Below are positions 4,304 through 5,321 of a stretch of 64,000 nt of DNA, piece after piece. The position numbers and the translations under genes were made by a program. The DNA is from Escherichia phage VEc20. The notes under the pieces are model-generated. The model was not told the DNA's origin, ran no database searches, and saw only the letters and a program-made list of their open reading frames with translations. The stretch's first letter is position 1. The number at the start of each line of letters is the position of its first letter. The stretch lies in the sequence record MN022785.1; one strand, given 5' to 3'.

Positions 4304-4379
4304 TGGTCGAGGCAGTAGGGATCGAACCTACGACCTAGGACTTAGAAGGTCCTTGCTCTTCCTTCTGAGCTATGCCCCG
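4304..4379 (-). tRNA. tRNA-Arg (anticodon TCT)
   Basis: hand-folded cloverleaf: acceptor CGGGGCA/TGCCTCG, anticodon loop CTTCTAA, T-arm GTAGG-TTCGATC-CCTAC, CCA encoded. Confidence 0.85.
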
Positions 4380-4383
4380 TAAT

Positions 4384-4459
4384 TGGGGTGACCGATGGGA
4401 GTCGAACCCATGACTACGAGAATCACAATCTCGAGTTCTACCAACTGAACTACGGCCAC
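4384..4459 (-). tRNA. tRNA-His (anticodon GTG)
   Basis: acceptor GTGGCCG/CGGTCAC, anticodon stem CGAGA/TCTCG loop TTGTGAT, T-arm ATGGG-TTCGACT-CCCAT, CCA encoded; no encoded G-1. Confidence 0.7.
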
Positions 4460-4573
4460 ATTAATACCTACTCCAACAATCAAGATGTCTTCACACGAAA
4501 TTAAGAGAAGAGTGATCAGTTCAACCCCTATAATCGCGTCAAGTAGATATTAATGTGACAGTTGTCACAAATT

Positions 4574-4648
4574 TGGCGGACGTGATAGGATTCGAACCTA
4601 TAACCAATCGCTTAACAGGCGATCGCTCTGCCATTGAGCTACACATCC
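4574..4648 (-). tRNA. tRNA-Asn (anticodon GTT)
   Basis: acceptor GGATGTG/CACGTCC, anticodon stem ATCGC/GCGAT loop CTGTTAA, T-arm ATAGG-TTCGAAT-CCTAT, CCA encoded. Confidence 0.8.
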
Positions 4649-4652
4649 AAAT

Positions 4653-4739
4653 TGGTGGGGAGTGGTGGAGTCGAACCACCCGAGTCGCAATGACAATGAA
4701 TTTACAGTCCACACCGCTACATCTACGGGATAACTCCCC
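4653..4739 (-). tRNA. tRNA-Tyr (anticodon GTA), class II with long variable arm; D-arm fold uncertain
   Basis: acceptor GGGGAGT/ACTCCCC perfect, T-arm GGTGG-TTCGACT-CCACC, anticodon loop CTGTAAA with G-U-containing stem, 87 nt. Confidence 0.55.
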
Positions 4740-4748
4740 AAATTAATT

Positions 4749-4823
4749 TGGTGGCCCTGGGTGGAATTGAACCACCATCTGGCGATTATGAGTCGCTTGC
4801 TTGAACCTTCCAGCTACAGGGCC
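4749..4823 (-). tRNA. tRNA with anticodon CAT (Met-type; probably the T4-like lysidine-modified tRNA-Ile)
   Basis: acceptor GGCCCTG/CAGGGCC, anticodon loop CTCATAA, T-arm GGTGG-TTCAATT-CCACC, CCA encoded. Confidence 0.8.
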
Positions 4824-4824
4824 T

Positions 4825-4900
4825 TGGTGCTGATTGACGGAATCGAACCGCCGACCTTCTCATTACAAGTGAGTTGCTCTACCTACTGAGCTAAATCAGC
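4825..4900 (-). tRNA. tRNA-Thr (anticodon TGT)
   Basis: acceptor GCTGATT/AATCAGC, D-arm GCTC-AGTAGGTA-GAGC, anticodon loop CTTGTAA, T-arm GGCGG-TTCGATT-CCGTC. Confidence 0.85.
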
Positions 4901-4905
4901 AAAAC

Positions 4906-4995
4906 TGGCGGAGGCGATAGGATTTGAACCTATGAGTCGCCGGAGCGACTGCCGGTTTTCAAGACCGGTGCATTAAACCACTCTGCCACGCCTCC
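4906..4995 (-). tRNA. tRNA-Ser (anticodon TGA), class II
   Basis: acceptor GGAGGCG/CGCCTCC, anticodon stem CCGGT/ACCGG loop CTTGAAA, long variable arm, T-arm ATAGG-TTCAAAT-CCTAT. Confidence 0.85.
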
Positions 4996-4997
4996 AG

Positions 4998-5071
4998 TCT
5001 CCGTGGCAGGATTTGAACCTACGACATTCTGCTCCCAAAGCAGACGCTCTACCAAACTGAGCTACACGGAG
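4998..5071 (-). tRNA. tRNA-Pro (anticodon TGG); CCA not encoded
   Basis: acceptor CTCCGTG/CACGGAG, anticodon stem TCTGC/GCAGA loop TTTGGGA, T-arm GTAGG-TTCAAAT-CCTGC. Confidence 0.8.
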
Positions 5072-5081
5072 TAAATTAAAT

Positions 5082-5155
5082 TGGAGCGGATAATGAGAAT
5101 CGAACTCACATCATCAGATTGGAAGTCTGAGGTAATACCATTATACGATATCCGC
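5082..5155 (-). tRNA. tRNA-Gly (anticodon TCC)
   Basis: acceptor GCGGATA/TATCCGC, anticodon stem TCAGA/TCTGA loop CTTCCAA, T-loop TTCGATT, CCA encoded. Confidence 0.85.
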
Positions 5156-5160
5156 AAATT

Positions 5161-5247
5161 TGGTGCGAGAAGTGGGACTCGAACCCACAAGGAAATCATT
5201 CCGCAGCATTTTAAGTGCTGTGCCTTTACCAATTTGACCATTCTCGC
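5161..5247 (-). tRNA. tRNA-Leu (anticodon TAA), class II
   Basis: acceptor GCGAGAA/TTCTCGC, anticodon stem CAGCA/TGCTG loop CTTAAAA, T-arm GTGGG-TTCGAGT-CCCAC, 87 nt. Confidence 0.85.
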
Positions 5248-5248
5248 G

Positions 5249-5321
5249 CTGGGAATAAAGGACTCGAACCTTTGCATCTAGCAGTCAAAGTGCTATGCCT
5301 TACCAACTTGGCTAATTCCCA
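5249..5321 (-). tRNA. tRNA-Gln (anticodon TTG); CCA not encoded
   Basis: acceptor TGGGAAT/ATTCCCA (U1-A72), anticodon stem TAGCA/TGCTA loop CTTTGAC, T-arm AAAGG-TTCGAGT-CCTTT. Confidence 0.8.

What the first reader, a model, noticed from the sequence alone, without database searches (positions are those of the whole stretch)
4304..5321. Eleven-tRNA array: the T4 set plus His, Asn and Tyr
Hand folding gives 11 minus-strand tRNAs in the order Gln, Leu, Gly, Pro, Ser, Thr, CAU-anticodon (Ile2/Met), Tyr, Asn, His, Arg, with spacers of only 1-10 nt except one 115-nt gap. T4 carries eight (Gln, Leu, Gly, Pro, Ser, Thr, Ile, Arg). The three extra genes occupy the place where T4 has the gap between Ile and Arg. 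The His gene has no encoded G-1 and the Tyr D-arm is atypical, so both need a proper fold check.
Basis: seen in the sequence. Interest (0 to 1): 0.45.

Follow-up and report, generated by a model that had tools for sequence, protein, structure and literature searches.

The report
T-even phage eleven-tRNA operon
This is the well-known tRNA gene cluster of a T4-like coliphage in its fullest 11-gene form, already annotated in hundreds of phage genomes; its only unusual parts are a histidine tRNA gene with no encoded G at -1, the structured RNA leader in front of it, and a one-base change unique to this genome in the tyrosine tRNA.

Summary
ARAGORN finds exactly the 11 minus-strand tRNAs at 4304-5321, in the stated order and with the stated anticodons. 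Rfam's tRNA model confirms 10 and misses Tyr.

The window is a Tequatrovirus, 99.1% identical to phage ESCO58. The same array is annotated in many deposited genomes, and 11-tRNA Tequatroviruses are in print. Tyr-Asn-spacer-His sits where T4 carries the segB homing-endonuclease gene. The segB-less layout was described for T2L in 2008. T6's almost identical tRNA-Tyr was shown in 2026 to counter the Septu defence. So the array is already known.

Both flagged oddities are real:
- His has T at -1 where the host has G, and it keeps C73. His is the most depleted amino acid in the phage ORFs (0.51x), so codon demand does not explain the gene.
- The Tyr D-arm is atypical across the whole phage lineage. 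This copy also carries a private G18-to-U change (window 4721) seen in none of 604 phage records.

One thing is new here. The 114-nt spacer is a conserved, covarying structured RNA that travels with His. T5-like phages have an analogous arrangement, the named stable RNA III directly upstream of their own tRNA-His, which also has T at -1.

The parts
5248..5321 (-). tRNA-Gln (UUG); CCA not fully encoded
   Evidence: ARAGORN; RF00005 66.0 bits; 100% identical to T4 and T6
5161..5247 (-). tRNA-Leu (UAA), class II; abuts Gln with no spacer
   Evidence: RF00005 59.3 bits; 100% identical to T4, T2 and T6
5082..5155 (-). tRNA-Gly (UCC)
   Evidence: 65.8 bits; 100% identical to T4, T2 and T6
4997..5071 (-). 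tRNA-Pro (UGG); allele differs from T4 and T2 (85%); CCA not encoded
   Evidence: 69.7 bits; sequence
4906..4995 (-). tRNA-Ser (UGA), class II
   Evidence: 62.6 bits
4825..4900 (-). tRNA-Thr (UGU)
   Evidence: 72.9 bits
4749..4823 (-). CAU-anticodon tRNA, best read as tRNA-Ile2 (lysidine form, reads AUA); T2-type allele, not T4's
   Evidence: 59.9 bits; the full-length E. coli matches listed are all annotated tRNA-Ile, 72-82% identity; 100% identical to T2 and no hit to T4 tRNA-Ile; ATA is 6.5x enriched in phage ORFs
4653..4739 (-). tRNA-Tyr (GUA), phage-type class II tRNA with a 4-nt connector before the D-stem; private G18-to-U at window 4721
   Evidence: ARAGORN; not called by RF00005; one mismatch from T6 and REP3; 0 of 604 phage records identical
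4574..4648 (-). tRNA-Asn (GUU); identical to the T2 gene, whose T2L counterpart holds the preferred SegB cleavage site
   Evidence: 74.1 bits; PMC2330249; motif GTTCGAATC at 4589-4597
4460..4573 (-). Structured leader RNA: small hairpin at about 4554-4569, then a 13-bp closing helix around two or three inner hairpins (conserved core about 4460-4558); the helix can extend to 19 bp by pairing with His nt 1-5
   Evidence: fold z=-4.4, 0 of 200 shuffles; 355 phage records; covariation; covariance model 124 bits sense against 19 antisense; no Rfam hit
4384..4459 (-). tRNA-His (GUG) with C73 but T, not G, at -1
   Evidence: 65.1 bits; flanks compared with host hisR and four other phages
4304..4379 (-). 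tRNA-Arg (UCU); T2-type allele
   Evidence: 66.1 bits
3935..4285 (-). 116-aa ORF between tRNA-Arg and rnaD; absent from T4, and T2 has an ORF of the same length at the same place
   Evidence: phrog_3355, unknown function, E 8e-53; no Pfam hit
3823..3935 (-). Homologue of T4 rnaD (species 2 stable RNA), 78.8% identical
3678..3816 (-). Homologue of T4 rnaC (species 1 stable RNA), 99.3% identical
3604..3627 (-). Terminator-like hairpin (10 bp, 6 GC) plus T-run just downstream of rnaC; probable end of the transcription unit (consensus scan only)
5428..5456 (-). Sigma-70-like promoter match (TTGAAT-17-TATCAT) about 110 nt upstream of tRNA-Gln (consensus scan only, 9 of 12 matches)

Best explanation
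This is the tRNA operon of a T-even (Tequatrovirus) coliphage in its fullest, segB-free form: eleven co-oriented, nearly abutting tRNA genes, followed by a small ORF and the stable RNAs rnaD and rnaC. Inferred from T4 biology: the unit is transcribed as a polycistronic precursor and cut into tRNAs by host RNase P, RNase III and 3'-end enzymes. The eight genes shared with T4 read the A-ending codons that are rare in E. coli and common in this 36% GC genome. Tyr and Asn serve the two amino acids the phage over-uses most. From published work on T6 and T5, they also act as spare parts when host defences (Septu/retron PtuAB for Tyr, PARIS AriB for Asn) cut the host tRNAs. Compared with T4, the block Tyr-Asn-leader-His occupies the site where T4 has the segB gene. 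SegB cuts inside tRNA genes, preferentially in tRNA-Asn, and copies itself in, which explains why related phages carry 8, 9, 10 or 11 tRNAs. The 190-nt unit 'leader + tRNA-His' is a separate cassette inserted precisely between Asn and Arg.
For: Shown here: gene calls. 99.1% identity to Tequatrovirus ESCO58, which has the same 11 tRNAs annotated. 186 phage records cover at least 80% of the Arg-His-leader-Asn-Tyr segment. The T4, T2, T6, bov9_1 and REP3 layouts differ by endonuclease or ORF insertions and gene losses. The T4 homology break lies in the CAU gene. rnaC and rnaD homologues and a terminator-like site lie downstream. Codon test on 81 window ORFs against 42 E. coli K-12 CDSs: AGA 9.8x, ATA 6.5x, GGA 4.0x, TCA 3.9x, ACA 3.8x, TTA 3.0x, CCA 1.9x, CAA 1.7x; Tyr 1.63x (highest amino acid) and Asn 1.53x. 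bov9_1 and T2 have Asn 4 nt from Arg and lack the leader and His. From the literature: SegB homing and its preferred site in T2L tRNA-Asn (PMC2330249); T6 tRNA-Tyr against Septu (PMC13096335); T5 tRNA-Tyr against retron-Eco7 (PMC11555353); AriB targets host tRNA-Asn (PMC12409363); RNase III takes part in T4 tRNA maturation (PMC4810235); 11 tRNAs reported for Tequatroviruses.
Against: Nothing contradicts the identification. Weak points in the functional account: (1) His does not fit codon supply, being the most depleted amino acid at 0.51x, and it lacks the G-1 that E. coli HisRS needs. (2) This genome's Tyr copy carries a G18U change that may impair it. (3) Transcription and processing were not observed here; the promoter and terminator are consensus matches only.
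Confidence: 0.93

Rival explanations
1. One or two of the 'extra' genes are not working decoders in this genome. The Tyr copy would be crippled by the private G18U change, which removes the D-loop/T-loop G18-psi55 contact. The His tRNA, matured without a -1 residue, would be charged very poorly. The array would then supply only 9-10 usable tRNAs.
For: G18U is absent from all 604 phage records carrying the gene, and all relatives examined have GAGG. RF00005 does not call Tyr. His has T at -1. Loss of G-1 lowers HisRS charging more than 100-fold, and G-1:C73 is what directs RNase P to cut at -2/-1 (PMC5499578). His codons are under-used.
Against: The His gene and its T at -1 are conserved across Tequatro-, Jiaoda- and Karamvirus phages, and independently in T5-like phages, which argues for selection. 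The DT57C record annotates the T5-like tRNA-His as 78 nt including the -1 T, so a U-1 form may exist. A single D-loop change need not abolish function, and it may simply be a sequencing error or a neutral stock mutation.
Confidence: 0.3
2. The leader + tRNA-His cassette is not there for decoding at all. It would be a mobile counter-defence or regulatory RNA module: a stable structured RNA plus a tRNA-His that acts as a decoy or replacement for a tRNA-cutting host nuclease, with maturation gated by the leader helix that sequesters the tRNA's 5' end.
For: His demand is low and there is no encoded G-1. The cassette is inserted cleanly between Asn and Arg and is shared at 78-88% between genera. 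The leader structure covaries and is strand-specific. In the leader + His fold the 19-bp leader helix beats the acceptor stem in both MFE and centroid. The leader persists without His in REP3, STP4-a and W70. The same layout recurs without sequence similarity in T5-like phages: stable RNA III, then a tRNA-His with T at -1. Probable AriB cleavage products of host tRNA-His were seen.
Against: No defence system is known to act mainly on tRNA-His. No experiment bears on the T4-like leader. Covariation rests on only 8 sequences of about 5 types. The outer 6 bp of the helix compete with an upstream hairpin, and in T5 the mapped RNA III ends use only the inner 12 bp. A processing by-product with no function of its own would look the same.
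Confidence: 0.2
3. The 114-nt spacer is just a promoter, a terminator or a decayed tRNA between two sub-clusters, not a structured RNA.
For: T4 has two tRNA sub-clusters. The spacer contains a TTGACG hexamer and a small hairpin.
Against: No minus-strand promoter or terminator call falls inside it. The TTGACG is not conserved: Jiaodavirus has TCAACG. ARAGORN in pseudogene mode and Rfam at E<=10 find nothing tRNA-like. The helices show compensatory changes, and invariant G-U pairs exist only on the tRNA-sense strand.
Confidence: 0.05

Closest known systems
Eleven-tRNA arrays of deposited Tequatroviruses (for example vB_EcoM_ESCO58 OM386666, AR1 AP011113, ACG-C40, HP3, APTC-EC-2A)
   Same: Same 11 genes, order, spacers and leader. 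98-99% identity over 1.5 kb, with tRNAs annotated in the records. 11 tRNAs are stated in papers.
   Different: This window's Tyr has a private G-to-T at 4721. Its Thr allele matches bov9_1 rather than ESCO58.
Phage T4 tRNA gene cluster (Gln Leu Gly Pro Ser Thr Ile | segB | Arg rnaD rnaC)
   Same: Same genomic position between the trna.2-4/ipI side and the e.8 side. Gln, Leu, Gly and Ser are identical. rnaC is 99% identical.
   Different: T4 has segB in place of Tyr-Asn-leader-His. It has different alleles of the CAU tRNA, Arg and Pro. It lacks the 116-aa ORF between Arg and rnaD.
Phage T2/T2L tRNA region (segB-less; Met/Ile-Tyr-Asn-Arg block; Brok-Volchanskaya et al. 2008, PMC2330249)
   Same: CAU and Asn genes are 100% identical, Arg 97%, Tyr 98%. 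A 351-nt ORF follows Arg in both. No segB. The Asn gene is the preferred SegB target.
   Different: T2 lacks the leader + His cassette, and an ORF replaces Thr.
T6 tRNA-Tyr, an anti-Septu factor amplified through SegB (Chihara et al. 2026, PMC13096335), and T5 tRNA-Tyr against retron-Eco7 (PMC11555353)
   Same: The window's Tyr differs from T6's by one base and has the same variable arm, including the C48 site that Septu cuts. It belongs to the same phage-type Tyr lineage as the T5-like, FelixO1-like and rV5-like phages.
   Different: This genome has no segB, so SegB-driven amplification is not available to it in cis. The G18U change is untested.
T5-family stable RNA III, then tRNA-His (annotated in DT57C NC_027356 as 'stable RNA with unknown functions')
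   Same: A structured RNA of about 100 nt with a 12-13-bp closing helix ends 1-2 nt before a tRNA-His that has T at -1 and C73. In both, the helix can extend to 19-20 bp by pairing with His nt 1-5. Folds are far better than shuffles: z -4.4 and -5.1.
   Different: No detectable sequence similarity (local-alignment z 0.5; covariance model finds nothing in the T5-like locus). The T4-like leader is unannotated in the records examined, and its expression is untested.

Membership tests
tRNA (Rfam RF00005 / cloverleaf) | Scores at or above the curated gathering score of the tRNA covariance model | tested here: met
   10 of 11 genes score 59-74 bits against a cut-off of 29. This row covers Gln, Leu, Gly, Pro, Ser, Thr, CAU, Asn, His and Arg.
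tRNA (Rfam RF00005 / cloverleaf): the Tyr gene | Scores at or above the gathering score of the tRNA covariance model | tested here: not met
   No RF00005 hit; best clan hit is tRNA-Sec at 27.8 bits against 47. The T6, FelixO1 and T5-like copies also fail, and the rV5-like copy scores 29.9. ARAGORN does call a class II cloverleaf with anticodon GUA, A73 and CCA. The T6 copy is expressed and active.
T-even phage tRNA gene region | Same genomic position and gene order as in T4 and T2, with rnaC and rnaD downstream | tested here: met
   Alignments to T4, T2 and T6 and their annotations.
Canonical bacterial tRNA-His | Genome-encoded G at -1 pairing with C73, which directs RNase P to cut at -2/-1 | tested here: not met
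   T at -1, with C73 present. The same holds in Jiaodavirus, Karamvirus and T5-like genes, while host hisR has G. The rule is stated in PMC5499578.
Canonical bacterial tRNA-His | Anticodon GUG and a cloverleaf with a 7-bp acceptor stem resembling the host's | tested here: met
   ARAGORN and RF00005 at 65.1 bits; 80% identical to hisR over the full length.
tRNA-Ile2 (CAU anticodon modified to lysidine, reads AUA) rather than tRNA-Met | Sequence closer to host ileX/ileY than to host Met tRNAs; IleRS and TilS identity elements (C4-G69, C29-G41, A37, A38, A73, listed from memory) | tested here: met
   The full-length E. coli matches listed are all annotated tRNA-Ile. C4-G69, C29-G41, A37, A38 and A73 can be read from the sequence. 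The list of identity elements is from memory of Nureki 1994 and Ikeuchi 2005 and was not checked here.
tRNA-Ile2 | C34 actually converted to lysidine by host TilS | not testable with these tools
   Needs RNA mass spectrometry or tRNA-seq.
Bacterial class II tRNA-Tyr | Long variable arm, anticodon GUA, A73, D-loop G18-G19 | tested here: inconclusive
   The variable arm (GUC-AUUGC-GAC), GUA and A73 are present. The lineage has GG in the D-loop, but this copy has UG, and all copies have 4 nt instead of 2 between the acceptor and D stems.
T5 stable RNA III family (for the leader) | Sequence homology to T5 RNA III | tested here: not met
   Local-alignment z = 0.5 against shuffles. The covariance model of the T4-like leader finds nothing in the T5-like locus. 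The resemblance is in position and architecture only.
Phage tRNA-operon stable RNAs (T4 rnaC/rnaD, T5 RNA I/III) as a functional kind | Accumulates as a discrete stable RNA in infected cells | not testable with these tools
   Only structure and conservation are shown. A northern blot or RNA-seq is needed.

The most novel reading that the evidence does not exclude
The 190-nt 'structured leader + tRNA-His' unit is a mobile cassette whose job is not codon supply. T4-like and T5-like coliphages have each, without detectable sequence similarity, paired a stable RNA of about 100 nt with a tRNA-His that has T rather than G at -1. The leader base-pairs with the tRNA's first five nucleotides and so controls how, or whether, its 5' end is made. 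The product would serve as a decoy or replacement against a tRNA-targeting defence, or as an uncharged-tRNA signal.
Probability: 0.15. Interest if true: 0.6.

Novelty: already known. Interest (0 to 1): 0.22.

Why it matters
The array itself matters little: it is a textbook feature of T-even phages and is annotated many times over. It is a clean example of how homing endonucleases (SegB and relatives) reshuffle tRNA sets between co-infecting phages, and of the current view that phage tRNAs serve both codon supply and defence evasion. The useful leads are narrower. First, two unrelated coliphage families carry a tRNA-His that breaks the near-universal bacterial rule of an encoded G-1, in genomes that use little histidine, and each is preceded by a structured RNA. 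Second, the T4-like version of that RNA is unannotated in the records examined and has no Rfam family. If its role were worked out, it might also explain the T5 and T4 'stable RNAs of unknown function', which from memory date to the 1970s-80s.

Tried and rejected
- **Leader as a decayed tRNA:** ARAGORN pseudogene mode finds nothing, and Rfam at E<=10 gives nothing in 4460-4573.
- **Leader as a promoter or terminator:** no minus-strand call falls inside it, and the TTGACG hexamer is not conserved.
- **Leader as a relative of T4 rnaC/rnaD:** only 6-7-nt chance words are shared.
- **Leader as a sequence homologue of T5 RNA I or III:** alignment z = -1.3 and 0.5. The covariance model finds no copy in T5-like, FelixO1, T2, T4 or T6 loci, or elsewhere in the window.
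- **More diverse leader copies:** a degenerate pattern scan of IMG/VR gave only 4 contigs, all T4-like types already seen. A BLAST from the rV5-like copy added no new types. The T5-like leader is at least 95% identical in all 283 records, so it gives no covariation power.
- **CAU gene as T4's tRNA-Ile allele:** rejected, since there is no blastn hit to T4 and 100% identity to T2.
- **Tyr as a host-derived gene:** rejected. There is no match on any E. coli chromosome, only on plasmids of about 72-110 kb in the records listed, one of which carries an Asn-Tyr-Thr-Ser array.
- **Flanking ORFs as clues:** PHROG families of unknown function only, and no Pfam domain.
- **Papers on phage tRNA-His and G-1:** none found.
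Full report
**1. The observation.**
ARAGORN on the 64-kb window returns exactly eleven tRNA genes, all on the minus strand between 4304 and 5321. The order is Gln(UUG), Leu(UAA), Gly(UCC), Pro(UGG), Ser(UGA), Thr(UGU), CAU, Tyr(GUA), Asn(GUU), His(GUG), Arg(UCU). The spacers are 0-10 nt, plus one of 114 nt between Asn and His.

Rfam's tRNA covariance model calls ten of the genes at 59-74 bits. It does not call Tyr, whose best hit in the clan is tRNA-Sec at 27.8 bits, below threshold. Nine of the eleven genes encode their CCA end; Gln and Pro do not (sequence).

**2. What the window is.**
The region is 99.1% identical to Escherichia phage vB_EcoM_ESCO58 (Tequatrovirus). 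It is 98-99% identical to dozens of other T4-like phages whose records annotate the same eleven tRNAs. In all, 186 phage records cover at least 80% of the Arg-His-spacer-Asn-Tyr segment. Papers on such phages state '11 tRNAs'. The array is therefore already known.

**3. Relation to T4, T2 and T6.**
T4 (NC_000866) has Gln Leu Gly Pro Ser Thr Ile, then the 666-bp segB homing-endonuclease gene, then Arg, rnaD and rnaC.

- T4 homology breaks inside the CAU-tRNA gene at about 4804. It resumes only at the rnaD and rnaC homologues (3823-3935 at 79%; 3678-3816 at 99%).
- The window's CAU and Arg genes are the T2 alleles (100% and 97%). T4's Ile and Arg give no hit. The Pro gene is only 85% identical to T4 and T2.
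- A 116-aa ORF of unknown function (phrog_3355) sits between Arg and rnaD. T2 has an ORF of the same length at that place; T4 does not.
- Other layouts: T2 is Gln Leu Gly Pro Ser [ORF] CAU Tyr Asn Arg. T6 is Gln Leu Gly Thr CAU Tyr segB. bov9_1 is Gln Leu Gly [endonuclease] Ser Thr CAU Tyr Asn Arg. REP3 has ...Tyr Asn spacer Arg.

This mosaic fits the published mechanism. SegB cuts at the 3' part of tRNA genes, with its preferred 27-bp site inside the T2L tRNA-Asn gene, and homes into segB-less arrays, replacing about 1250 bp (PMC2330249). The window's Asn gene is identical to T2's. The reported SegB motif (RAWTSGAAC, searched as its complement GTTCSAWTY) occurs on the tRNA strand in Asn, Thr, Gly and rnaC. 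This genome is therefore predicted to be a SegB recipient.

**4. Function of the array.**
I compared 81 ORFs of the window (19,791 codons, 36% GC) with 42 annotated E. coli K-12 genes (14,748 codons).

- The codons read by the eight T4-type tRNAs include the five most phage-enriched codons, and all eight are enriched: AGA 9.8x, ATA 6.5x, GGA 4.0x, TCA 3.9x, ACA 3.8x, TTA 3.0x, CCA 1.9x, CAA 1.7x. This supports the classical codon-supply role.
- It also fits reading the CAU gene as Ile2: the full-length E. coli matches listed for it are all annotated tRNA-Ile.
- Tyr and Asn are the first and third most over-used amino acids (1.63x and 1.53x), so extra Tyr and Asn tRNAs also make sense as supply.

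There is also direct published evidence for a defence role. Septu (PtuAB) cuts the variable arm of host tRNA-Tyr. T6's own tRNA-Tyr rescues infection when its dose rises. T4, which lacks the gene, cannot escape, and T2 is resistant (PMC13096335). T5 tRNA-Tyr does the same against retron-Eco7. PARIS AriB cuts host tRNA-Asn as a secondary target, and T5 tRNA-Asn helps to neutralise it (PMC12409363).

By my reading of the sequence, the window's tRNA-Asn has UAAGC|G where the host target has UAAUC|C. That might make it a poorer AriB substrate. This is inference and was not tested.

**5. The Tyr gene.**
The 'atypical D-arm' has two layers.

- *Lineage-wide.* All phage-type Tyr genes compared (T2, T6, Jiaodavirus, T5-like, FelixO1, two Vequintavirinae phages and an E. 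coli plasmid, but not phage W70, whose Tyr gene is of another type) share an invariant CCG(U)...(G)CGG D-stem preceded by four nucleotides instead of two. Most of these copies fail the Rfam tRNA model or barely pass it. RefSeq flags the FelixO1 copy as a pseudogene, and some records label the gene 'Val' or 'OTHER'.
- *Origin.* The gene has no detectable match on any E. coli chromosome. It is found on 273 plasmid sites; the listed examples are 72-110 kb.
- *Private.* This window has GAUG where every relative has GAGG. That is G18-to-U, at window 4721. None of 604 phage records is identical, and the best are one mismatch away. It may be a real polymorphism, a stock mutation or a sequencing error. 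It removes a near-universal tertiary contact, so this copy may be weakened.

**6. The His gene.**
The host hisR gene has G at -1 (...tagtG|GTGGCTA). The phage gene has T (...attaaT|GTGGCCG) while keeping C73. The same holds in Jiaodavirus and Karamvirus copies and in the unrelated T5-like gene (...caatT|GTGGCTA).

According to PMC5499578, all bacterial pre-tRNA-His studied, apart from some alpha-proteobacteria, rely on G-1:C73 to shift RNase P to -2/-1. Loss of G-1 lowers charging by HisRS more than 100-fold. The curated DT57C record annotates its tRNA-His as 78 nt including the -1 T; I cannot tell on what basis.

His is also the most depleted amino acid in the phage ORFs (1.34% against 2.60%, 0.51x). 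Neither codon supply nor canonical identity explains this gene. I found no paper addressing it.

**7. The 114-nt spacer.**
- *Fold.* It folds far better than shuffled sequence (z = -4.4, 0 of 200). A small hairpin is followed by a 13-bp helix that closes two or three inner hairpins and ends one base before His.
- *Distribution.* About 98 nt of it is conserved in 355 phage records: Tequatrovirus, Karamvirus, Jiaodavirus, Gelderlandvirus STP4-a and the Vequintavirinae phage W70. It is always inside a tRNA array, usually just before His. It also occurs without His: REP3 has Asn-element-Arg, STP4-a has element-Asn, and W70 has Gly-element-Gln.
- *Covariation.* On eight sequences, the consensus structure has 94.8% of cells paired, against 37-51% when partners are slid. 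Nine pairs change on both sides, against 0-3 in the slid controls, and 0 of 500 shuffles reach the observed values.
- *Strand.* Invariant G-U pairs and a covariance-model score of 124 bits (sense) against 19 (antisense) place the structure on the tRNA-sense RNA.
- *What it is not.* It has no Rfam hit, is not tRNA-like, and is unrelated to rnaC and rnaD.
- *Pairing with His.* The helix can extend to a perfect 19 bp by pairing upstream GUCAC with His nucleotides 1-5 (GUGGC). In the 192-nt leader + His fold this helix wins over the acceptor stem. In W70 the equivalent strand pairs with the 5' end of tRNA-Gln.

The T5-like tRNA-His has the same layout with no sequence similarity. A leader folds at z = -5.1, and its helix extends to 20 bp using His nucleotides 1-5. 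In DT57C this leader is annotated as RNA III, a 106-nt 'stable RNA with unknown functions' that ends two bases before G+1 of tRNA-His, directly before the -1 T that the record includes in the gene.

My best reading is that the spacer is a co-transcribed structured RNA released during tRNA processing, a functional analogue of T5 RNA III. It possibly also gates maturation of tRNA-His through an RNase III-sensitive helix; RNase III is known to take part in T4 tRNA maturation. Structure and conservation are shown here. Expression and function are inferred.

**8. Verdict.**
The finding is a correct description of an ordinary, already known feature. Two small leads are worth recording: the 'structured leader + tRNA-His' cassette, and the private G18U in tRNA-Tyr.

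Noticed in passing
window 4460-4573 (-), conserved core about 4460-4558: The Asn-His spacer is a conserved, covarying, strand-specific structured RNA. It is found in 355 phage records across five T4-like and rV5-like groups, is unannotated in the records examined and has no Rfam family. It can pair with the first 5 nt of the downstream tRNA.
   Followed up: yes
L023 6124-6252 (-) (T5-like HASG4); L026 515-698 (DT57C): T5-like phages have the same layout without sequence similarity: the annotated stable RNA III (106 nt) lies directly upstream of a tRNA-His with T at -1, and a predicted 20-bp helix includes His nt 1-5 (z = -5.1). DT57C annotates the tRNA-His as 78 nt, including the -1 T.
   Followed up: partly
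window 4721 (tRNA-Tyr position 19): A private G-to-T in the D-loop GG (canonical G18). None of the 604 phage records carrying this gene has it. It could be a real variant, a stock mutation or a sequencing error.
   Followed up: yes
L018 1421-2247 (E. coli plasmid pEC881_2, 109 kb) and about 270 other E. coli plasmids: The phage-type tRNA-Tyr (81-91% identical) occurs on E. coli plasmids of about 72-110 kb in the records listed, and on no E. coli chromosome. In pEC881_2 it sits in an Asn-Tyr-Thr-Ser array. These are probably phage-plasmids.
   Followed up: partly
window 3678-3816 and 3823-3935 (-): Homologues of T4 stable RNAs rnaC (99.3%) and rnaD (78.8%) are present. They are separated from tRNA-Arg by a 116-aa ORF (3935-4285, phrog_3355) that T4 lacks. 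rnaD is much more diverged than rnaC.
   Followed up: partly
window 4574-4648 (tRNA-Asn) and 4825-4900 (tRNA-Thr): By my reading, the phage tRNA-Asn has UAAGC|G where host tRNA-Asn has the AriB (PARIS) cleavage context UAAUC|C. The phage tRNA-Thr has UAAUG|A against the host's UAAUC|A. These could be resistance substitutions. Not tested.
   Followed up: no
L005 289-397 and L006 223-397 (Karamvirus-like, STP4-a): In these phages another unannotated stretch of about 110-175 nt lies between tRNA-Gln and the leader element. It was not examined for structure.
   Followed up: no
and one search hit lists: Eighteen records named 'Campylobacter phage' (for example A13b, 141 kb) match the coliphage-type tRNA-Tyr, A13b at 93.8%. 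The rV5-like coliphage EduardKellenberger matches at the same identity, which hints at mislabelled or contaminated records.
   Followed up: no
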